From assembly GCA_964537315.1 (NCBI GenBank), contig CAZIAP010000001.1, positions 314,888 through 378,887 on the forward strand: a stretch of DNA of 64,000 nucleotides, in the 5' to 3' direction. Shown piece by piece: positions 55,947-64,000 of the stretch. Every line of letters starts with the position of its first letter. Within the stretch, counting starts at the first letter, position 1. This stretch comes from an uncultured Gammaproteobacteria bacterium (lineage in GTDB: Bacteria; Patescibacteriota; Microgenomatia; Levybacterales; GWA1-39-11). Made by a program: the position numbers and the translations under genes. The notes beneath the pieces were generated by a model that saw only the letters and a list, made by a program, of their open reading frames with translations, was not told the DNA's origin and ran no database searches.

Positions 55947-57140
55947 TTAATCTTTGTTTTCATCATCTTCAAAAGACATTTGATTCATTATAGATTCTTT
56001 TATATCATCAATTACAATTACACCCGCTTTACCTTTTGCTTTAAAAATATCGCCATGGACTTCAATAATATTTTGAGATTTCAAACTATCTGCTACAAAA
56101 TTAATTCTTGCTTTAGTTAATTGATGTGAGATAGCTACAAATGGCTTCTTAACTGGTTTTTTATTTATTGCTACAACAGAAAATTGTGCTTTACCGTTAG
56201 AAGAAACTAGGTCAACTATCACATCAACTGTTGCATTACTTGCTTCAATAGTTTCATCATTCGCTTCATCCTCTTTTTTTTCTAAATATGTGATGAAATT
56301 ATCTGGAATGGTCATAACTTCATTGAGTTCAATCTTCTTAAATTTTTTTTGATGGTCAGATAAATTAAAGTCCAAAAAGGGATTACCGTGGCTTGTAATT
56401 GATATCTCATCAATACTTGATTCATATTTTCTTATATATTTTGCTATTCCTATACTTTCTGACAAAAAGCTTTTAATGATTCTTGAGTCAATTTCTTGCT
56501 CCATAGCTTCTTTAGCAAAAGCTTCTTCATTTGTGATTTTAATAGTTAACATTCTTTCAACTGTATCTAGATACTCCCGAATAACCTTGTTTGTAGGCGA
56601 TGGTTCTTCCCATAACATATCCGCTTGCTGTTCTGCTTTTATTGATATTGGAATTATAAAACTACCATTTTGTGTATGATTAAATTCAAAATGTTCAATC
56701 GGTACAAATTTACTCCTCCTAGATGAATAAAAAATTCTGAAACTATTTATATTCTTTTGTGGCACATTATTTGCTACTTCAAATGGTATGGCACTACCTT
56801 TATAGTTACCATTATTTACAATCCTATTAATTAATTTATAGTTATATCCTGAAAGCTGGTTATAGATTTCAATGAAATTTTCATCATTTTCTGGTAATTT
56901 AAGAGTATATAACAAAAGTTTTATATTCTTCTGTTGGTAATATTTATAATTATTCGAATTTTCTCCTTTAGGAAGTATCGTCCATAGGTCACTTTGCTCG
57001 TTAAAGACCCACTTTTCATATTCATTTGTAGATTCGATCCTACTCCAATTTGTCCTTCTAAATGCGTCCTTAAAACTACTTATCTTAATTGGTTCAGTTG
57101 TATTCATATTGCTAAAATAATGTTGTAATTGTATTTTCAT
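55947..57140 (-). CDS. hypothetical protein (397 aa), no recognisable domain; second gene of a two-gene overlapping operon
   Basis: Clean ORF that overlaps the upstream 166-aa gene by 29 nt. Acidic C-terminal tail. Confidence 0.5.
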   Translation of the reverse strand: MKIQLQHYFSNMNTTEPIKISSFKDAFRRTNWSRIESTNEYEKWVFNEQSDLWTILPKGENSNNYKYYQQKNIKLLLYTLKLPENDENFIEIYNQLSGYNYKLINRIVNNGNYKGSAIPFEVANNVPQKNINSFRIFYSSRRSKFVPIEHFEFNHTQNGSFIIPISIKAEQQADMLWEEPSPTNKVIREYLDTVERMLTIKITNEEAFAKEAMEQEIDSRIIKSFLSESIGIAKYIRKYESSIDEISITSHGNPFLDFNLSDHQKKFKKIELNEVMTIPDNFITYLEKKEDEANDETIEASNATVDVIVDLVSSNGKAQFSVVAINKKPVKKPFVAISHQLTKARINFVADSLKSQNIIEVHGDIFKAKGKAGVIVIDDIKESIMNQMSFEDDENKD

Positions 57141-57612
57141 TTAATATGTTCGTTTTAGGTATTTTAATCAACCCAGCTTCAATCCTTTGATCAACCTTGT
57201 AGTAATAGGCACATTTTTTGATCAGGATATGATCATGATTAAGTTCCACCCAAGTTTCATAAGATTCACTTTCAGGCAAACATATCAGGAATATATAAAA
57301 ATTTCCAAAACCTATTGGTTCAATAGACGATGATAAGCGGTATTCTATGTAACTATCTGTTTCTTTAATCATTGTACTGCTTGATACAGACACACTTTTT
57401 AATTGGACTTTTATTTCATGAGCTTCTGACGCGACTGATCGACCTTCTCCAACCACTTTATTCATTATTGCGTAATCAACTCCCAATTCGTCAAGTTCTC
57501 TTACTGATGGATTTATTGTGTAGTTAACTTTTGCGACTAGTGCATATAGATATGCTGTGGATGTTTTTTCTTTTATTCTATTAAGAATATTTGTAACAGG
57601 AACATTATTCAT
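57112..57612 (-). CDS. hypothetical protein with PD-(D/E)xK-like motifs (YraN/DUF4365-like); paralogous to the C-terminal domain of 55078..55836
   Basis: STAYLYALVAKVNY...ELGVDYAIMNKVVGEGRSVASEAHEIKVQLKS has the D...E-x-K core and resembles GTAAEYYVMAELLFKGY...GLDIFAV...YIQVKH. Confidence 0.45.
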   Translation of the reverse strand: MNNVPVTNILNRIKEKTSTAYLYALVAKVNYTINPSVRELDELGVDYAIMNKVVGEGRSVASEAHEIKVQLKSVSVSSSTMIKETDSYIEYRLSSSIEPIGFGNFYIFLICLPESESYETWVELNHDHILIKKCAYYYKVDQRIEAGLIKIPKTNILNENTITTLF

Positions 57613-58224
57613 TGAGTAGCATTATAACAGAAGATTATCTTATTTATACCATATATACAAATAAATAATAAATGAAACTACTGATTATTATTTTCGTATC
57701 AAATTGCATATTAAAACTACTACAAAAATATTCAAATCGATCAGTAACTACTGAAGAAATGACAAATTAATCAAAGGAGGAATAATTGACGAATCTCTTG
57801 TAATCGACGATTTAATCCAAGAAAAACGAATTACTAAAATAGGAATTACCAAAAGTACTACAAGGAAATAACTACTTTATCGTTAATTCACGCTATGAAA
57901 TAATATCCTTATTTGTAGGAAAAACAGCCACACAAAACTTGACACTTTTTAACAAATTTTGAGGCTAATATTTAGAAAGACTGTTAATGTCCTATTCCCA
58001 TATAACCCCACAAAACACTACATTTTTGCTTTATTCATTTGTTATAATTCTTCAGATATCTAGAACACCAGGATTAGGGGTCTGGGGCTTAGAAGGTTAA
58101 TACCTGACGCCGATAGAGGGATTCCCCGTCCTCTCTAGATATCAAATTGTATATCTATTTTCTTCTATTTTTATGAAACCCACTCTTCGGTAAACCCAGG
58201 ATAAACGGGAATGGTTCGACAAGG

Positions 58225-58563
58225 TCATAGGTTTTTATACTGTAAATTTTCTAATGTTTTCTTTAATGCTTGTTTGATATGATCACGACCGAAGCCACTT
58301 TTCAAAAATTTTTCTCTAGCTTTTGCATCACGCTGGTCAGTAAATGACTCGTAGAAAATTAACTTTAACGGTCTGCGGTGCTTTGTAGCACTGACATACC
58401 CCTTTTCATGTTCAATTATTCTTTGATTTAAATTAGTGGTATAGCCTGTATATAACTTGTGATCACGCAGACTAAAGAGAATATATACGTAAAAATTAGA
58501 AGATAAAACGTCTGACGTTTTATTCATTAATAATATAAAATGGGAGAAGAGTAATCGAGTCAA
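58225..58563 (-). CDS. GIY-YIG nuclease family protein
   Basis: YVYILFSLRDHKLYTGYTTNLNQRIIEH contains GIY-YIG motif variants (VYIL...YTGYT). The ~110-aa size is typical of standalone GIY-YIG proteins. Confidence 0.8.
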   Translation of the reverse strand: MTRLLFSHFILLMNKTSDVLSSNFYVYILFSLRDHKLYTGYTTNLNQRIIEHEKGYVSATKHRRPLKLIFYESFTDQRDAKAREKFLKSGFGRDHIKQALKKTLENLQYKNL

Positions 58564-58616
58564 ACTCGATTCACCTTCATCAAACTCTACTCCGGGCGGA
58601 GCCGAGTTTGACTCGG

Positions 58617-58689
58617 TGACCCCACGGGAATTCGAATCCCGGTTTCTGGGATGAGAACCCAGTGTCCTAGGCCTCTAGACGATGGGGCC
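58617..58689 (-). tRNA. tRNA-Glu (anticodon CUC), 73 nt, CCA not encoded
   Basis: Manual fold: acceptor GGCCCCA/TGGGGTC, D-arm GTCT-AGAGGCCTA-GGAC, anticodon arm CTGGG-TTCTCAT-CCCAG (U33, CUC, A37), variable loop AAAC, T-arm CGGGA-TTCGAAT-TCCCG, discriminator A. Confidence 0.85.
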
Positions 58690-58761
58690 GTCAAAAAACT
58701 CTAATATACAAAAGGATTAGAACTTAGAGGTACGAGAATTATATCAAATTCAAATCTTAAA

Positions 58762-58796
58762 TCAAAAAAAGATCTGCGCCGGAGGAGCTGCAGATC
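58762..58796 (-). terminator. rho-independent terminator (GATCTGCAGCTCCTCCGGCGCAGATC hairpin followed by a T7 run on the minus strand)
   Basis: Perfect 7-bp GC-rich stem GATCTGC/GCAGATC, followed on the minus strand by TTTTTTT. Confidence 0.65.
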
Positions 58797-59046
58797 CCGA
58801 CCTGCCTTACGACAGATTTGAATAACAGTTGTTCACGCGATATCTCGCGTGCCTCCGACGCAGGTTCTACCTGGATTAGGACTTATCAGACTTTCGGATT
58901 ACCTTGCGCGTGCAAGGCGCTATGATTTCCCTTCTGCGGTTAAAATACCTCCGTCGTGGACCCAAGTAGAGTATTCGAGGTGTCCTTCGAAAGACCGCAA
59001 CAGGGGAACCGTACCGAAAAGCCACTAGCTATTCCTTCCATTAGAC
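58797..59046 (-). ncRNA. candidate structured non-coding RNA of unknown class (~250-285 nt, GC-rich, between two terminators)
   Basis: No ORF of 60 aa or more on either strand. GC content far above background. A terminator follows the preceding gene at 59047..59088 and a strong terminator sits at 58762..58796. No tmRNA, RNase P or SRP consensus could be recognised by eye. Confidence 0.3.
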
Positions 59047-59088
59047 GAAAAAAGTAGGGGTAAAGCGGTGTACACCGCACTATACCCT
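59047..59088 (-). terminator. terminator-like hairpin (GGGTA..GCGGTGTACACCGC..TACCC) followed by a T6 run on the minus strand, immediately after the stop of 59080..59412
   Basis: 14-bp perfect palindrome GCGGTGTACACCGC at 59065..59078. A minus-strand T-run occupies 59047..59052. Confidence 0.45.
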
Positions 59089-59412
59089 TCTGTTTTGCCG
59101 CAAAGCTCGCTCCTTACTAAAGTCAATAATCTGACTTTGATTACTACGATCACTCGTTTGTGTGTTGCTCAATGAATGTTGAACATACCACGCGCCTGAC
59201 AGAGCGCCAAGTGAAAAGAAAGCTATGCTAACTCCCGGATTATATGCTTTGAACTTCTTTTTGCTAGATCTTTTAGGTAATCTCCTAAAGATTCCCAATC
59301 TCCAACATGTGACCATAGCCAAAAGACATACTACTGCTATAAGCTCAAGAGAGAAATAAAGAGGGAGAGCTATCGTCAAACAAACAGCAAAAACTACTAG
59401 AAACTTCAGCAT
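59080..59412 (-). CDS. small membrane protein (two TM helices), unknown function
   Basis: MLKFLVVFAVCLTIALPLYFSLELIAVVCLLAMVTCW...VSIAFFSLGALSGAWYV. Confidence 0.45.
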   Translation of the reverse strand: MLKFLVVFAVCLTIALPLYFSLELIAVVCLLAMVTCWRLGIFRRLPKRSSKKKFKAYNPGVSIAFFSLGALSGAWYVQHSLSNTQTSDRSNQSQIIDFSKERALRQNRRV

Positions 59413-60010
59413 CGTTTCTTCCCTTCCAGATAGATGTTAAAGATCTGTTGTGCACTTCACAACAAATTACAGTTCACACTCGCTTCATATGCAAGATGTG
59501 AATTGGTTGCCATAAGTATAGTTTGTTAAAAAGTGAGAGTCAATAATAATTAAATTGAGAATAAATGAGGATATTTGTATAACCGGGCGGGGTGGACCCG
59601 CCCGGTGTAAGTGGTCAGAGTCGTCAGATGACGAAGTGTTCCGCATAGATCGCGGAGATTCGTACAAATGACAACCTGTCACTCATGCATCTGCTTTCCA
59701 AGCAGAAATTGCGAAATACCAGGCTAGGCGTTGAGAAGCATACGGAGCTGGTCTCGATCACACGTTAGACAACGACATTTTCGGCAAAAAATGCCGAAAG
59801 CAATCATGTCGTTCAAAACAGAGCTATCGATCTCCAACCCGAACGGACTCTCACGAGTAAGAGAGTCCAGAGTGGTTCGCAATATGCGCGGATTGCGTTC
59901 CCACTTCTTCTCAAGCTTAGCGAAAACATCCTGCAAATCGATCTCACTGTTAATGTGAGACTTCTTCTCGCTGCTTCGTACAACGACAGAGACCTGTGCC
60001 AGCGTCTGAA

Positions 60011-60241
60011 TCATTTTTTCCCCTCCCCCGAGGTTTCAAAAGAACCAAGGCCGATAATGATTTCCTGCATGTATCGAAGGAGTTTTTCAGGATCGTCTTC
60101 GATCCTTACGTTCTCATTGCCATCTTCGGCAAAAGAGATCGTCAACTGATCAGGCTTTACCAATTCAGGCAGCTTCTCATCAGTTGAATTGCCATTTCCT
60201 AAGAAATGGTCGTTCACCGCGCGTTTCCTTTCTGGCTTCAC
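60011..60241 (-). CDS. hypothetical small acidic protein (76 aa), low confidence; lies in a GC-shifted ORF-poor region
   Basis: Protein-like composition (VKPDQLTISFAEDGNENVRIEDDPEKLLRYMQEIIIGLG) but overlapped by ORFs on the opposite strand. Confidence 0.25.
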   Translation of the reverse strand: MKPERKRAVNDHFLGNGNSTDEKLPELVKPDQLTISFAEDGNENVRIEDDPEKLLRYMQEIIIGLGSFETSGEGKK

Positions 60242-60470
60242 TATTAAATATGGATGCCAGAAAGAACCCTTTGTTTCATTACGTCACCCTTCCAGGTAAA
60301 GATGTCAGTAGAGTAAGCGAATGACACTTATTCTACTGACAACGCATAACGGATTGTAAAGACATGCGCACAACTGAACAACAACAGTTGGCACGTTTCA
60401 ACGCTATCGGCTCACGGCATATCCTTTCTCTAAGATCAATGATCTCTGCCTCATCCTGTGATTTATATCA

Positions 60471-60563
60471 CAGACAAAGACCGCCGGAAGAAAAGAGTAA
60501 CTCTCTCCTCTTTCGGCAGTCTTTATAAAGCAGTTTATTGGATTTCGCAATTTTAATGTACTA
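60471..60563. repeat. direct repeat copy A (~95 nt; the homologous copy B is at 61041..61148)
   Basis: The copies share caaagaccgc..gaaaaga..ctcctcttt..cgcag..ttttaatgtacta at about 75% identity. Confidence 0.5.
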
Positions 60564-61040
60564 GATCTCACATTTTTTTACTTTTACAAAAAGTATATTG
60601 GTGTGGGAGCGCATAAGTCGCGCCCCCACTAAAGAAAACAGGAAGTACCTTCATTTGACGATACATTGACCGCCAAGATAATACCTCCTGTCAAGCTGGA
60701 ACCTAATCGGAATGTCCTTTCAATGCATATAGCATTCTGCGTTTTCGATCAATATCACGGTCGCGTGATCTGTGAGGAGCACCATGCTTTCTCTTTAATT
60801 GGTATCGCTTCGCTCGCGACCCCTTCTCTTTTAGTGTCTGAACAGCTTGCATTCGTAACACTTCGAAAAGTGGCTCCATCTCGACGGGCCTCACACCGGA
60901 AATGGAGGTGCCAACAATTGAGAAAGCATAAGATGCTTGCATCGTACTAATCCTCCTACGTTTCGTCGAACTTATTAGGATGTATCCTCAAAAGACTTAG
61001 TTATCCTTTCTACTAGGCCTTTATACATAATCGGGACTTC

Positions 61041-61148
61041 CGACAAACAAAGACCGCGAAAAGAAAAGACAAAAACCTCCTCTTTACGCAGCCCTTGCAA
61101 AAAAACTCCGATTTGAACGGAGTAAATTCCAGTTTTTTAATGTACTAC
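61041..61148. repeat. direct repeat copy B
   Basis: See copy A. Contains the internal hairpin CTCCGatttgaaCGGAG. Confidence 0.5.
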
Positions 61149-61154
61149 TTTTAA

Positions 61155-61220
61155 AAATAAAAAAAGCAACCGTTATTAAGATACAAATTGTCTAAGATCT
61201 TAATATGGTTGCTTTTTAGT
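61155..61220. terminator. bidirectional rho-independent terminator downstream of lon (11-bp stem AAAAAGCAACC/GGTTGCTTTTT with nested TTAAGAT/ATCTTAA)
   Basis: The stem is flanked by A-runs and T-runs on both strands, giving U-tracts in either orientation. Confidence 0.55.
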
Positions 61221-61368
61221 ATACGCTTAAAATAATATCCTGTCAATATACTATAAGGATAATTATTATATGAGTGCCTCTTACAAATTTTAATAAATTT
61301 CTGTAAGTTTAACCGAGATCAAGAAGAAAATTTCTTACGAAGCTGATAAAAACTTAATTTCTTATAGG

Positions 61369-63765
61369 TTATTCTGCAGGAGTAGGCTGCATGGAGACAA
61401 AATTCTGTTTTGGTTGTTTTTCGCCTTTAATCTCTTTAAAGCCCGGAAGAGGTTTAGTAAGTGCGATTTTTAATACATCATCCATGTGGCTTACGAATAC
61501 AAACCTAAGATCATTTAATACTTCTTTTGGCACATCTTCCAGATCTTTTCTGTTTTCTTTAGGCATAATAATAGTCTTTAATCCTGCACGGTGCGCAGCA
61601 ATTACTTTTTCTTTAACTCCACCAATTTCAAGAACTCTTCCTCGAAGTGTTACTTCACCGGTCATACCGACTAAGTGGTTAGTAGGAATTTTTGTCAGTG
61701 CTGACACAATAGCTGTAGTAATAGCAGTGCCTGCTGATGGTCCGTCTTTTGGTACAGCACCTTCAGGTACGTGAATATGTACATCTAGTTTGTCATAGAA
61801 ATCTTCTGAGATTCCAAGCTTCTTTGCTCTTGATCTAATATATGACATAGCAGCCTGTGCCGACTCTTTCATTACATCTCCGAGTTTTCCCGTTAATGTA
61901 AGTCTACCCTTTCCAGGCATGAGAGCGATTTCTATGAATAAGATATCTCCTCCAACTTCTGTGTATGCAAGTCCTGTTGCAATTCCGACTTCATCTTTTT
62001 TCTCAGCGATTGTTGATGCAAATTTTGCAGGTCCGAGATACTTGGTTACAGTTCTTTCAGTTACCTCAACTTTTTTCTTCTTTCCTTCAGCTACTCCTTT
62101 TGCTACTTTTCTCATTACTGCAGCTATCTCTCTCTCAAGACTCCTTACTCCTGCTTCACGAGTATAACGTCGGATGATAAACCGTAACGCACCATCTGTA
62201 ATTGATACATTCTCTTTCTTCAAACCATGTGCTTCGCGCTGTTTTTTGATTAGAAAGTCTTTTGCGATATGGAACTTCTCGTCTTCTGTGTAACCTGCAA
62301 ACCTAATTATTTCCAATCTGTCACGAAGTGCAGGTGGGATAGTATCAAGCATGTTTGCAGTTGTGATAAACATTACATCCGAGAGATCAAAATCTACGTC
62401 AAGATAATGATCGCCAAACTTGCTGTTCTGCTCTGGATCAAGTGCTTCAAGTAATGCTGCTGTTGGATCTCCGCGGAAATCTACCCCTACTTTATCAATC
62501 TCATCAAGCATGAAGACTGGGTTTTTGGTACCTGCGTCCTTAATTCCTTGTATCATACGACCTGGCAGAGCACCTACATAGGTTCGTCTATGTCCTCTTA
62601 TCTCTGCCTCATCACGAACTCCTCCAAGTGATAGTTTCACAAATTTTCTGTTAAGTGATTTGGCGATTGATTTACAAATAGATGTTTTACCAACTCCTGG
62701 TGGACCTACAAAACATATAATTGGTCCTTTCATTTTTCCTGACAATTTGTGTACTGCCAAGTACTCGATAATTCTTTCTTTTACTTTTTCAAGTCCATAG
62801 TGATCTTCATCAAGTACAGCAGCTGCTTTTTTCATATCAAGTGAAGTCTTTGATTTTTTATTCCATGGTAGGGATACGAGCCACTCTAAATAATTGCGGA
62901 TGTATCCTGCTTCTGGATTATATGGGGTTGTTTGCTGAAGTTTGCGTAACTCTTTGCGGGCTTTGTCCTCAACATCTTTTGGCATTCCTGCCTTACGTAT
63001 TTTATCGAGAAGCTCACGTACCTCTCCTCCCTCATCTGACTCACCGAGCTCTTTTTCTATTGTCTTTAGACGCTCTCTTAGAATTGCTTCTTTTGCATTT
63101 TTCTCAAATTGCTCTTGGGTTTTTGAAGCAATCTTTCGTTCAAGTTCGAGAACTTTTACTTCACGGGAAAGAAACTCTGATACTTTTTCAAGACGTTTTT
63201 TAACATCTATGGTTTCTAAAATCTCCTGTCGTTCGCTACCTTTTATATCAAGTGTAGATGCGATCTGATCTGCCAGTTCACCTGGTGTAATTTCAGACAT
63301 TATATTCATAAACACGAGAAAGTCTGCCTGCTTTCCATAATTAAGAGCTTTTTTGAATTCACTGATTAAGTGGTTGGTGAGTGCTTTAATTTCGGCGTTA
63401 CCAGTATCTCCCTCGTCAATTTCTTCAATTTCTGCGAGTAAGTAGTTACCCTTGTCTTCGTATGAAATTATTTTAGATCGATTAAGACCTCGGACAAGTG
63501 CATTTACTTCTCCGTCAGAACGAATCATACGTTCTATATGAGATACTGTTCCCATAGAATAAAGGTCTTCAGGGCTTGGATCATTTTGTCGTGGATTTTT
63601 CTGTAGAACAAAACAAACAACACGCTCTCCTGCAAATGCTGACTCAAGAGCTGCCAAACTTTTTGGTCTTCCGAAAGTCAAAATACTTTCAGTATGGGGA
63701 AATACAATACCGTCTCTAATTGGTATTACTGGAATCAATTTTCTGTTTGATGAAGTTAGATTCAT
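61369..63765 (-). CDS. lon: ATP-dependent Lon protease (LonA)
   Basis: N-terminal LON domain, Walker A GPPGVGKTS, Walker B MLDEIDK, and protease domain with PKDGPSAGTAITTAIVSALT (catalytic Ser) and K in GGVKEKV. Confidence 0.95.
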   Translation of the reverse strand: MNLTSSNRKLIPVIPIRDGIVFPHTESILTFGRPKSLAALESAFAGERVVCFVLQKNPRQNDPSPEDLYSMGTVSHIERMIRSDGEVNALVRGLNRSKIISYEDKGNYLLAEIEEIDEGDTGNAEIKALTNHLISEFKKALNYGKQADFLVFMNIMSEITPGELADQIASTLDIKGSERQEILETIDVKKRLEKVSEFLSREVKVLELERKIASKTQEQFEKNAKEAILRERLKTIEKELGESDEGGEVRELLDKIRKAGMPKDVEDKARKELRKLQQTTPYNPEAGYIRNYLEWLVSLPWNKKSKTSLDMKKAAAVLDEDHYGLEKVKERIIEYLAVHKLSGKMKGPIICFVGPPGVGKTSICKSIAKSLNRKFVKLSLGGVRDEAEIRGHRRTYVGALPGRMIQGIKDAGTKNPVFMLDEIDKVGVDFRGDPTAALLEALDPEQNSKFGDHYLDVDFDLSDVMFITTANMLDTIPPALRDRLEIIRFAGYTEDEKFHIAKDFLIKKQREAHGLKKENVSITDGALRFIIRRYTREAGVRSLEREIAAVMRKVAKGVAEGKKKKVEVTERTVTKYLGPAKFASTIAEKKDEVGIATGLAYTEVGGDILFIEIALMPGKGRLTLTGKLGDVMKESAQAAMSYIRSRAKKLGISEDFYDKLDVHIHVPEGAVPKDGPSAGTAITTAIVSALTKIPTNHLVGMTGEVTLRGRVLEIGGVKEKVIAAHRAGLKTIIMPKENRKDLEDVPKEVLNDLRFVFVSHMDDVLKIALTKPLPGFKEIKGEKQPKQNFVSMQPTPAE

Positions 63766-64000
63766 AATTTAACTTTAGCAGTGTAACAACTTCTTTGCTA
63801 ATTGTCAACCCCGACTCACAATCGGGATTAATAGATTATGGTGTAAGAAAATATAAATATAATGATTTCGGGTATAGAGTAATTATAATACGTTTCAAAT
63901 ATAAAATACACGTAAGAGAATGAGTTGTTGACACTATTCCATTTCAGGAGTACAATTGATCGTTGTCCCTCTCATAATAGTTTTACAAAAGCGCTGTACA

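What the first reader, a model, noticed from the sequence alone, without database searches (positions are those of the whole stretch)
59413..61160. GC-shifted ~1.75-kb ORF-poor region packed with hairpins and a pair of ~100-nt direct repeats
Base composition jumps to about 45-50% GC. Only short overlapping ORFs occur on both strands, the signature of non-coding GC-rich DNA. The 96-aa ORF's CxxCxCxxC stretch is merely the translation of a CGACATtttcggcaaaaaatgccgaa...ATGTCG palindrome. The region holds many perfect palindromes (CCGGGCGGGgtggaCCCGCCCGG, CTGTGATttatATCACAG, AGGATgtATCCT, GGGAGCGC..GCGCCCCC). Two homologous direct repeats (60471..60563 and 61041..61148, about 75% identity, both ending TTTTAATGTACTA) bracket about 480 bp. 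The region lies between a tRNA and lon. It could be a cluster of regulatory RNAs, an origin or iteron-like region, or the decayed core of a horizontally acquired element.
Basis: seen in the sequence. Interest (0 to 1): 0.6.

Follow-up and report, generated by a model that had tools for sequence, protein, structure and literature searches.

The report
Small-gene island with structured RNA leaders
The flagged GC-rich stretch is not empty non-coding DNA: it is a lineage-specific island in a Levybacteria (candidate phyla radiation) genome that carries four orphan small-protein genes on the opposite strand, each wrapped in strongly folded RNA leaders and trailers, and the two "100-nt direct repeats" are two copies of a previously undescribed leader hairpin.

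Summary
The GC shift, the dense hairpins and the two direct repeats are all real and exceed chance. The interpretation "ORF-poor, non-coding" does not hold.

Read on the minus strand, the island (about 58762-61150) lies between the lon terminator and the tRNA-Glu promoter. It encodes ORF79, the overlapping pair ORF68/ORF96, and a 3-TM ORF110. ORF79 and ORF96 have syntenic homologues under purifying selection (pN/pS 0.2-0.3, and only that frame is open). Their GC3 is 0.36-0.57 against a host value of 0.28±0.04, which suggests foreign origin.

The repeats are paralogous copies of a leader RNA: a roughly 23-bp hairpin P1, a short hairpin P2 and a purine-rich tail. Ten copies from five related islands (all downstream of lon in Levybacteria) pair at 93%. 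Fourteen of 20 pairs show compensatory changes, and the G·U pairs fit only the sense strand. The other "palindromes" are terminators, a hairpin that sequesters the ribosome-binding site, and conserved UTR hairpins. A roughly 300-nt structured RNA with a covarying three-way junction follows ORF110.

Nothing matches Rfam, Pfam, PHROGs, PADLOC, phages or plasmids. Gene content between the conserved UTRs differs among relatives. The function is unknown. My best guess is coordinated post-transcriptional control of variable small-protein cassettes. The origin/iteron reading is rejected.

The parts
61160..61246 (-). Conserved promoter-like site TTGACA-17-TATACT (61246-61218), followed at once by a long hairpin GCAACC...GGTTGC and a T-run (about 61208-61160). 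This is the lon terminator, and possibly an attenuator or a short transcript at the entry to the island.
   Evidence: Promoter scan scores 11/12. The sequence was read. The same promoter plus hairpin plus T-run occurs after lon in L005 (about 1040-1120), L007 (7159-7247) and, in analogous form, L026 (7356-7440).
61005..61099 (-). It comprises P1 hairpin 61096-61049, P2 hairpin 61043-61031 and a purine-rich tail UAGUAGAAAGGA. It lies upstream of ORF79.
   Evidence: Covariance model R1 scores 79.3 bits, E=3.6e-15. An additional small terminator-like hairpin at 61123-61105 lies just upstream.
60703..60942 (-). ORF79: a small, very basic (pI 10.7), predicted all-helical protein with a strong SD (AGGAGGA) 8 nt upstream. 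It is an orphan family.
   Evidence: It is called as a gene in 3 assemblies. The homologue P0008 is 79-84% identical. dN/dS is 0.22, and it is the only frame both open and constrained. AF2 gives pLDDT 69 with two long helices, and there is no PDB fold match. No Pfam, PHROG, PADLOC or NCBIfam hit.
60603..60629 (-). GC-rich hairpin GUGGGGGCGCG-ACUUA-UGCGCUCCCAC downstream of ORF79 (terminator-like).
   Evidence: Read. The stem is conserved with a different loop in L004 (221-248) and L005 (1647-1673).
60423..60527 (-). It heads the roughly 320-nt 5' UTR of ORF68/ORF96.
   Evidence: Model R1 scores 90.2 bits, E=1.1e-17. P1 covariation is shown. P2 changes compensatorily (U-A to C-G).
60228..60341 (-). 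Remainder of the structured 5' UTR. It contains a 15-bp hairpin P3 (60341-60303), a small UUACCUGG/AGGGUGA hairpin, and a hairpin (60264-60228) whose 3' arm GCCAGAAAGG overlaps the SD of ORF68.
   Evidence: Inverted repeats I12 and I6. The consensus fold of W, L004 and L005 keeps these helices, and the SD hairpin changes from UUCUGGC/GCCAGAA to UUCCGGUU/AACCGGAA in L005. z-scores here are -5 to -6.5.
60011..60217 (-). ORF68: a small acidic protein (pI 4.4) with a GTG start conserved in three taxa. Its stop overlaps the ORF96 start (ATGA).
   Evidence: It is called as a 68-aa gene. The L004 homologue is 51% identical, and L005 ORF56 shares the DDPEKLL[RK]Y motif. It is the only frame without internal stops in both taxa, but constraint is weak (pN/pS 0.69-0.75).
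59724..60014 (-). ORF96: a small protein with a conserved C-x2-C/H-x-C-x2-C cluster and an SD GGGGGAGGGG. It is an orphan (2 members in 1.8 billion representatives).
   Evidence: The homologue P0002 is 65% identical and in the same two-gene arrangement. dN/dS is 0.18, and it has the best frame of six. The exhaustive profile search found no other relative. The AF2 model is unusable (pLDDT 46).
59560..59723 (-). Conserved structured 3' UTR with several short hairpins, ending in the GC hairpin CCGGGCGGG-UCCA-CCCCGCCCGG (59607-59585).
   Evidence: z-scores are -4.6 to -5.3. It is conserved in L004 (1117-1260) and L005 (2454-2600), even though L005 carries different upstream genes. By-eye covariation: GACA/UGUC versus GACU/AGUC, and UCCGC/GCGGA versus UCCACG/CGUGGGA. 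L007 carries two copies of the terminator-plus-promoter unit.
59515..59543 (-). Promoter-like TTGACT-17-TATACT for ORF110.
   Evidence: Scores 10/12. It is conserved in L004, L005 and twice in L007.
59080..59412 (-). ORF110: a small basic membrane protein (about 3 TM segments, charged C-tail).
   Evidence: It is called as a gene. Syntenic homologues occur in L005 (32% identity) and L007 (25-28%), with conserved W37, LG, WY and a KERAL tail. The frame is open in both taxa, and substitutions are saturated.
58762..59075 (-). Structured RNA 'S' after ORF110. Its 3' domain (58865-58762) is a three-way junction closed by a 12-bp helix CUGCGUCGGAGG/CCUCCGGCGCAG and followed by a U-run.
   Evidence: z=-3.8. 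The three-taxon consensus has 63 pairs, 20 of them covarying. The 3' domain has 34 pairs, 9 covarying, and one hairpin differs completely in sequence in each taxon. Model R2 finds it only in W, L005-type loci and L007. No Rfam hit.

Best explanation
The flagged region is the core of a compositionally foreign island of about 2.4 kb. The island is restricted to one lineage and sits between lon and tRNA-Glu in a Candidatus Levybacteria (CPR/Microgenomates) genome. It is read entirely on the minus strand. It is a row of small expression cassettes: ORF79; the translationally coupled pair ORF68/ORF96; the membrane protein ORF110; and then a structured RNA S. Each coding sequence is short and has no known relatives. 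Each is embedded in long, GC-rich, strongly folded untranslated RNA. The two '100-nt direct repeats' are paralogous copies of a cis-acting leader RNA at the head of the first two cassettes. The leader consists of a roughly 23-bp hairpin P1 with a conserved AGAG/CUUU core containing a near-invariant G·U, a short hairpin P2, and a purine-rich tail. The remaining palindromes are intrinsic-terminator-like hairpins, a hairpin that occludes the ORF68 ribosome-binding site, and conserved UTR hairpins. Shown: the genes are real; the hairpins are conserved by compensatory change on the sense strand; the leader occurs only in such islands; and relatives carry different genes between the same conserved UTRs. 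Inferred: the shared leader gives the cassettes a common post-transcriptional control. The most likely form is a 5' stabilising or processing hairpin (P1 is a near-perfect two-turn duplex, the kind of substrate RNase III cuts) or the binding site of one common factor. Translation of ORF68 would be gated separately by the SD-sequestering hairpin. What the proteins do is unknown.
For: Host assignment: the closest Lon C-termini in GTDB representatives are Levybacteria/Levyibacteriota MAGs at 75-91%.

Coding: gene calls come from three independent assemblies. Homologues lie in syntenic loci L004, L005 and L007. dN/dS is 0.22 for ORF79, 0.18 for ORF96 and 0.17 for ORF110. In a six-frame control only the annotated frame is open in both taxa and it has the lowest pN/pS. 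The plus-strand 94-aa ORF gives 2.5.

Foreign composition: GC3 is 0.42, 0.48, 0.57 and 0.36, against host 0.28±0.04 (n=43).

Structure: z-scores of -3 to -6.5 are confined to the UTR parts, and minus-strand MFEs are consistently lower than plus-strand MFEs.

Leader: a MAFFT alignment of 6 homologous copies gives 23 pairs, 8 of them compensatory. Ten copies give 93.4% paired cells, 14 of 20 pairs with changes on both sides, 0 of 500 shuffles reaching this, and slid controls of 54-65%. There are about 28 G·U cells that would be A·C mismatches on the other strand.

Distribution: model R1 finds exactly two copies in the 64-kb window. Across about 0.9 Mb of lon loci from 80 Microgenomates it finds copies only in the lon-downstream islands of L004, L005/L087, L007 and L026.

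Cassette exchange: between W and L005, lon is 81% identical, ORF79 80%, the 5' UTR 73% and the 3' UTR 63%. The genes between the UTRs are non-homologous (50%, unrelated proteins).

SD hairpin and other 5'-UTR helices are conserved in three taxa.
Against: There are no transcript data, so transcription start sites are unknown. I could not place a convincing promoter directly upstream of leader copy 1, and P1 might not lie at the 5' end of any RNA.

Only four or five distinct islands exist, all from one narrow clade. Covariation statistics therefore rest on few, related sequences. Three of the ten P1 copies (L007_B, L007_C and L026_2, each also a weak R1 model match) had their boundaries trimmed by eye to hairpins sharing the AGAG...CUCUUUU theme, which inflates the pairing percentage.

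G·T wobble is also tolerated in single-stranded DNA, so a DNA-level hairpin is not strictly excluded.

ORF68 is only weakly constrained (pN/pS about 0.7). ORF110 is saturated, so its coding status rests on the conserved open frame and its TM pattern.

No protein has any detectable relative or a confident fold, so the biological role of the island is open.

The high GC could reflect selection for RNA structure rather than foreign origin.
Confidence: 0.7

Rival explanations
1. Pure non-coding reading: the interval has no genes and is a cluster of independent regulatory RNAs, and the ORFs are accidents of GC-rich sequence.
For: The region has a very high hairpin density. No ORF matches any protein family. 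AF2 models are poor. One palindrome lies inside ORF96 and keeps pairing in L004 through a change that alters an amino acid (F to C together with a synonymous R codon change; read).
Against: ORF79 and ORF96 show three- to five-fold excess of synonymous over non-synonymous change, and only in the annotated frame. All four ORFs stay open in diverged relatives. Strong SD sequences and an ATGA stop/start overlap are conserved. z-scores inside ORF79 are about 0.
Confidence: 0.05
2. Remnant of an integrated mobile element (a small prophage, satellite or plasmid fragment) that landed next to tRNA-Glu. The repeats are leftovers of its regulatory or att regions, and ORF110 is a holin-like membrane protein.
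For: Codon GC3 is 2-7 sd above the host. The island sits beside a tRNA in a slot that holds unrelated genes in other Levybacteria (L016, L018, L019). Gene content is mosaic and island divergence far exceeds that of lon. A GIY-YIG gene is adjacent. ORF110 has the generic holin-like layout of about 3 TM segments and a charged tail.
Against: No integrase, transposase or Rep lies within about 14 kb on one side or about 6 kb beyond lon on the other. The element lies at the 5' side of the tRNA, not the usual 3' end. There are no flanking att-like duplications above chance. There is no DNA match in 50,697 phage or 72,556 plasmid records, no leader motif in IMG/VR, and no PHROG hit. The genes are intact and constrained, and the island has been kept at the same locus through speciation.
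Confidence: 0.15
3. Integron-like cassette array without integrase (CALIN-like): P1 hairpins play the role of attC recombination sites that bound exchangeable small-ORF cassettes.
For: Imperfect-palindrome repeats about 570 nt apart bracket a single small ORF. Structure is conserved more than sequence in the outer stem. Relatives carry different ORFs between conserved flanks. Cassette GC differs from the host.
Against: There are no RYYYAAC/GTTRRRY core sites at the ends of P1 (read). The strand that folds best is the sense strand of the ORFs. The hairpin core is conserved in sequence and is followed by a conserved P2 and tail. The cassettes carry their own promoters, SDs and terminators. The exchange breakpoints between W and L005 lie inside ORF68 and after the ORF96 stop, not at P1. 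No IntI is nearby.
Confidence: 0.04
4. Functional guess for the middle cassette: ORF68/ORF96 (and ORF56/ORF76 in L005) is a novel type II toxin-antitoxin-like pair. The acidic upstream protein neutralises the downstream one, and the neighbouring Lon protease is the conventional antitoxin degrader.
For: The two small genes have a 4-nt ATGA overlap. The upstream gene is acidic (pI 4.4-4.8) and the downstream gene neutral to basic (pI 7.6-10.1). The pair is replaced as a unit in L005, with only a short motif of the first protein retained. The first gene evolves fast. The composition looks foreign.
Against: There is no similarity to any TA or defence family. A 320-nt structured leader is unusual for type II TA operons, which are usually autoregulated at a short promoter. 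The adjacency to lon may be coincidental. L007 and L026 cassettes do not show the same pairing.
Confidence: 0.15
5. Replication origin or iteron region.
For: Only the general impression of repeats and palindromes in an apparently gene-poor stretch supports this.
Against: No DnaA-box match with one mismatch or fewer lies anywhere between 43.8 kb and the end of the window, and the window total (16) is below the chance expectation (20.9). There are no tandem iterons. Cumulative GC skew falls monotonically through the region. Nearly all large ORFs on both sides are on the same strand.
Confidence: 0.01

Closest known systems
Structured 5'-UTR stem-loops that stabilise or process mRNAs (the ompA 5' hairpin; the RNase III processing hairpins between phage T7 early genes)
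   Same: Long, near-perfect hairpins are placed ahead of cistrons in the sense transcript and repeated ahead of several genes of one cluster. The duplex length of about 23 bp fits an RNase III substrate. This comparison rests on established knowledge, not on a test made here.
   Different: There is no sequence or model similarity to any Rfam family. The position relative to the 5' end is unknown. The conserved AGAG/CUUU G·U core, P2 and the purine tail have no described counterpart. No cleavage or stability data exist.
GC-rich intergenic structured RNAs of AT-rich genomes (the class found by GC-IGR searches, including large orphan RNAs that sit near tRNAs such as ROOL and GOLLD)
   Same: This is a GC-rich, strongly folded, covariation-supported RNA in a 35% GC genome next to a tRNA gene (RNA S and the UTRs).
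   Different: No match to the ROOL, GOLLD, OLE, raiA or any other Rfam model at E<=10. S is about 300 nt and is tied to a small-protein island. Most of the GC-rich stretch is mRNA, not a free-standing RNA.
Integron gene cassettes / CALIN arrays
   Same: Small orphan ORFs of atypical composition are separated by hairpin-forming repeats, and cassette content differs between relatives.
   Different: There are no attC core sites and no integrase. The hairpin folds on the sense strand. The cassettes have their own promoters and terminators, and the breakpoints are not at the hairpin (see the membership test).
Type II toxin-antitoxin operons
   Same: The ORF68/ORF96 pair has overlapping stop/start codons, an acidic-then-basic order, small size, unit-wise replacement, and proximity to lon.
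   Different: There is no homology to any TA family, it has a long structured leader, and neither toxicity nor binding has been tested.

Membership tests
Any Rfam 15 RNA family | Covariance-model score at or near the family's gathering threshold | tested here: not met
   Over 56000-64000 only tRNA-Glu passes. Over 58690-61220 at E<=10 the five hits score 15-24 bits against thresholds of 37-208, so they are chance matches.
Integron attC site / cassette array | Inverse core R'' (RYYYAAC) and core R' (GTTRRRY) at the two ends of the imperfect palindrome | tested here: not met
   The ends of P1 read AAAGAC...GUCUUUG in all main copies. There is no AAC/GTT core pair.
Integron attC site / cassette array | IntI tyrosine recombinase nearby (complete integron), or at least two attC sites scoring with the attC model (CALIN) | tested here: inconclusive
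   No recombinase domain is found in the ORFs from 47 kb to 58.5 kb, nor in the genes beyond lon. The IntegronFinder attC model is not available here.
Type II toxin-antitoxin module | Two small co-transcribed genes with overlapping or adjacent stop/start codons | tested here: met
   The ORF68 stop overlaps the ORF96 start (ATGA at 60014-60011). The same holds in L004 (817-820), and L005 has a 14-nt overlap.
Type II toxin-antitoxin module | Homology of either partner to a known toxin or antitoxin fold or family | tested here: not met
   No Pfam, NCBIfam, PADLOC or PHROG hit. The AF2 model is too poor for a fold search.
Type II toxin-antitoxin module | Toxicity of one partner, neutralised by the other | not testable with these tools
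   This requires an expression experiment.
Chromosomal or plasmid replication origin / iteron region | Clustered DnaA boxes or tandem iterons, an AT-rich unwinding element, and a GC-skew switch | tested here: not met
Integrative element at a tRNA gene (prophage, satellite or genomic island) | An integrase plus a direct repeat of the tRNA 3' end flanking the element | tested here: not met
   There is no integrase. The island lies at the 5' side of tRNA-Glu. The only tRNA-related repeat is a 14-nt, 86% match that I take to be chance (D9).
Dispersed intergenic repeat (REP/BIME/MITE-like) | Many copies scattered over unrelated intergenic regions of the genome | tested here: not met
   Model R1 finds only the two copies in 64 kb. 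Across 970 kb of related loci it finds copies only inside lon-downstream islands. Exact and degenerate pattern scans of genome, metagenome and viral collections gave nothing beyond chance. The whole genome could not be scanned.

The most novel reading that the evidence does not exclude
The P1-P2 leader, the conserved 3' UTR and RNA S together define a new RNA-framed 'cassette holder' specific to a CPR lineage. In this reading a fixed scaffold of regulatory RNAs sits downstream of lon, and unrelated small-protein genes are swapped into it between strains. The leader would be a new class of cis-regulatory RNA (a sensor or the operator of a dedicated factor) controlling fast-evolving effector, immunity or toxin-like proteins of an episymbiotic bacterium.
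Probability: 0.12. Interest if true: 0.7.

Novelty: new variant of a known kind. Interest (0 to 1): 0.42.

Why it matters
CPR/Patescibacteria genomes are small and poorly annotated. Their lineage-specific small proteins and regulatory RNAs are largely unexplored. This locus supplies two new structured RNA motifs supported by covariation: a repeated cassette leader and a three-way-junction RNA. It also supplies at least four orphan small-protein families, arranged so that conserved RNA elements frame gene content that varies between strains. If the leader proves to be a shared control or processing signal, it would be a rare example of coordinated post-transcriptional regulation in CPR. It would also be a handle for finding further fast-evolving small-protein loci, possibly conflict or host-interaction genes. 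As it stands the locus is a well-documented curiosity of narrow distribution and unknown function.

Tried and rejected
- Rfam at gathering and permissive thresholds found only the tRNA.
- Pfam, PHROGs, PADLOC and NCBIfam on all island ORFs from four islands found nothing meaningful.
- blastn of the island against plasmids and phages gave no match.
- The word-indexed protein search (3 uses) and one exhaustive HMMER profile search found only the same-clade homologues.
- An exact 22-mer of the leader in genome and metagenome collections gave 0 hits.
- A degenerate leader pattern gave 14 metagenome hits. All lack the complementary 5' arm, so I count them as chance. It gave 0 viral hits.
- AF2 on ORF96 (pLDDT 46) and ORF79 (pLDDT 69, a helical hairpin), and a Foldseek search of ORF79 against PDB, were uninformative.
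- Looking for promoters directly upstream of the leaders gave no consistent -35/-10 across taxa, so start sites are left open.
- The idea that ORF79 is the dedicated leader-binding regulator is weakened. L026 has leaders but no ORF79-like gene.
- The idea that the short ORF beginning at the conserved GGAUGAGGCA is translated was rejected, because its length and frame are not conserved (16, 14 and 3 codons in the three taxa; read).
- One literature search found nothing on this locus.
Full report
**What is there**

The window averages 35.1% GC. A block from about 58770 to 61150 averages 43.9%, with 400-nt windows of 42-49%. It lies between tRNA-Glu(CTC) (58615-58689, minus strand) and lon (61369-63765, minus strand). 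The two direct repeats are found as two collinear blocks about 573 nt apart, at 85% and 76% identity. Folding energy in 150-nt windows is 3 to 6.5 sd below dinucleotide shuffles at 59475-59700, 60075-60675 and 60975-61275. It is near zero in lon, in the genes to the left, and inside ORF79. The minus strand consistently folds better than the plus strand, for example -58.1 against -43.7 and -49.8 against -31.0 kcal/mol. The raw observation is therefore correct and exceeds chance.

**The region is coding, on the other strand**

Reading the minus strand gives an ordered series of features:
- the lon stop codon;
- a promoter-like TTGACA-17-TATACT, followed at once by a long hairpin and a T-run;
- repeat copy 2;
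- ORF79, with an AGGAGGA ribosome-binding site;
- a GC hairpin;
- repeat copy 1, heading a folded leader of about 320 nt;
- ORF68, whose stop overlaps the start of ORF96 (ATGA);
- a folded trailer ending in the CCGGGCGGG hairpin;
- a TTGACT-17-TATACT promoter;
- the membrane protein ORF110;
- a folded RNA of about 300 nt with a U-run;
- the tRNA-Glu promoter.

Gene callers on three independent Logan assemblies called exactly these four ORFs. Homologues exist only in syntenic copies of the same island:
- L004 carries ORF68 at 51% identity and ORF96 at 65%.
- L005/L006/L087 carry ORF79 at about 80% and ORF110 at 32%.
- L007 carries ORF110 at 25-28% and a weak ORF79-like ORF50.

Nei-Gojobori estimates give dN/dS of 0.22 for ORF79, 0.18 for ORF96 and 0.17 for ORF110 (the last is saturated). 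ORF68 gives 0.69, or 0.24 against L005. In a six-frame control, the annotated frame is the only one open in both taxa and has the lowest pN/pS. The plus-strand 94-aa ORF that overlaps ORF79 scores 2.5, so it is not coding. The Cys cluster of ORF96 is conserved as C-x2-C/H-x-C-x2-C. The "ORF-poor, non-coding" reading is therefore wrong.

**Host and distribution**

The Lon C-terminus is 91% identical to a MAG contig (L007) and 75-79% identical to many Candidatus Levybacteria/Levyibacteriota MAGs. The host is therefore a CPR (Microgenomates) bacterium. Several record titles that read "uncultured Gammaproteobacteria" are evidently mislabelled.

Other Levybacteria keep lon and tRNA-Glu a few kilobases apart but hold ordinary, unrelated genes between them (L016, L018, L019). 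The slot is variable, and the island is confined to a sub-clade.

Island ORFs have GC3 of 0.36-0.57, against 0.28±0.04 for 43 host ORFs.

Between the window and L005:
- lon DNA is 81% identical, ORF79 80%, and the cassette-B leader 73%;
- RNA S is 64% identical and the trailer 63%;
- the genes between leader and trailer are non-homologous (ORF68+ORF96 versus ORF56+ORF76), with only a DDPEKLL[RK]Y motif shared;
- ORF110 is 49% identical at the DNA level.

L007 has the same lon divergence but shares almost no island DNA beyond the motifs, and it carries other ORFs.

**What the repeats are**

The two repeats align with the corresponding elements of L004, L005 (two copies) and L007. RNAalifold on the MAFFT alignment gives one 23-bp hairpin (P1), with 8 pairs changed on both sides. 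A covariance model built from these six copies finds exactly two copies in the 64-kb window. Across 970 kb of lon loci from 80 Microgenomates it finds copies only in lon-downstream islands. These include weaker copies in L007 (one directly before the ORF110 homologue) and two in a fifth island, L026, whose ORFs are again unrelated.

Ten P1 copies give 93.4% standard pairs, and 14 of 20 pairs have compensatory changes. None of 500 column shuffles reaches this, and registers slid by 1-3 columns give 54-65%. The outer stem covaries freely. The inner stem keeps an AGAG...CUUU core with a G·U pair in 9 of 10 copies. About 28 G·U cells would be A·C mismatches on the plus strand, so the selected fold is that of the sense (minus-strand) RNA. 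One caveat applies: L007_B, L007_C and L026_2 (weak R1 matches) had their hairpin boundaries set by eye.

P1 is followed by a short hairpin P2. After P2 comes a purine-rich UAGUAGAAAGGA-like tail.

**The other hairpins**

- The GGGAGCGC/GCGCCCCC and CCGGGCGGG hairpins sit just after the ORF79 and ORF96 stop codons. Their stems are conserved and their loops differ in relatives, which makes them terminator-like.
- In the cassette-B leader, a 15-bp hairpin (60341-60303) is conserved in three taxa.
- A second leader hairpin (60264-60228) has a 3' arm covering the ORF68 SD. It is also conserved in three taxa, changing from UUCUGGC/GCCAGAA to UUCCGGUU/AACCGGAA.
- AGGAT..ATCCT lies in the ORF79 leader and is kept in L005 with another loop.

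**RNA S**

The 300 nt after ORF110 fold with z=-3.8. A three-taxon alignment gives 63 pairs, 20 of them covarying. The 3' domain is a three-way junction of 34 pairs, 9 of them covarying. One of its arms has a different sequence in each taxon. A model of this domain matches only the three islands. Rfam has no match.

**What it is not**

- It is not an origin or iteron region.
- It is not a dispersed repeat.
- It is not a recognisable phage, plasmid or defence element.
- It has no integrase nearby.
- P1 lacks attC core sites.

**Mechanism**

Shown:
- the cassettes code for real proteins;
- sense-strand RNA structures are conserved;
- the leader is shared by cassettes within and between islands;
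- cassette content is exchangeable.

Inferred:
- the leader provides common post-transcriptional handling, either as a stabilising or processing hairpin (for example an RNase III substrate) or as a factor-binding site;
- the SD hairpin gates ORF68 translation;
- the ORF68/ORF96 pair may be TA-like (acidic then basic, overlapping genes);
- ORF110 has a generic holin-like or small-membrane-protein layout.

None of these functional inferences could be tested here. The proteins have no detectable relatives and no usable structural models.

**Verdict**

The feature is a new, narrowly distributed island of small orphan genes framed by new structured RNA motifs. It is of moderate interest, and its function is unresolved.

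Noticed in passing
window 58762-59075 (minus strand); L005 3084-3400; L007 9420-9739: A structured RNA of about 300 nt lies between ORF110 and the tRNA-Glu promoter, outside the flagged interval. Its 3' part is a covarying three-way junction closed by CUGCGUCGGAGG/CCUCCGGCGCAG and followed by a U-run. An alternative hairpin, GAUCUGC..GCAGAUC, overlaps the closing helix, so a terminator/antiterminator choice is conceivable. No Rfam match.
   Followed up: partly
window 61160-61246 (minus strand); L005 ~1040-1120; L007 7159-7247; L026 7356-7440: A near-consensus promoter (TTGACA-17-TATACT) sits between the lon stop codon and the lon terminator hairpin. A transcript from it would consist of little more than the terminator hairpin. 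The arrangement is conserved in four taxa while the loop sequence is not. It could be a 3'-UTR-type small RNA or an attenuator at the entry to the island.
   Followed up: partly
window 58225-58563 (minus strand); L007 9856-10255; L018 10602-10853; L087 2739-2993: A small GIY-YIG gene travels with tRNA-Glu but changes side. It is downstream of the tRNA in the window and immediately upstream, overlapping the tRNA start, in L007, L018 and L005-type loci. In L007 an extra copy of the first 11 nt of the tRNA (GGCCCCATCGT) lies just before the GIY-YIG gene, suggesting a mobile insertion.
   Followed up: no
L001, L002, L003 ends = window 58660-58666: All three independent Logan assemblies of this organism break inside the tRNA-Glu gene. 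This hints at strain heterogeneity, or a repeat, immediately beyond the island.
   Followed up: no
window 59773-59812 (inside ORF96): The palindrome that encodes part of the Cys cluster keeps its pairing in L004 through a U-A to G-C change. That change costs an amino-acid substitution (F to C) and is paired with a synonymous Arg codon change. An RNA hairpin may therefore be selected inside the coding sequence as well.
   Followed up: partly
window 55947-57612 (minus strand): An unusually AT-rich stretch (27-30% GC) left of the tRNA holds a DUF4365 protein (a domain of unknown function in Pfam) overlapping an unannotated 397-aa ORF. It may be a second variable islet.
   Followed up: no
L007, L009, L012, L014, L026 and others (record titles): Many MAG records titled 'uncultured Gammaproteobacteria bacterium' carry Lon proteins 75-91% identical to Levybacteria and the same CPR-type synteny. 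The taxonomic labels of that MAG series appear to be wrong.
   Followed up: no
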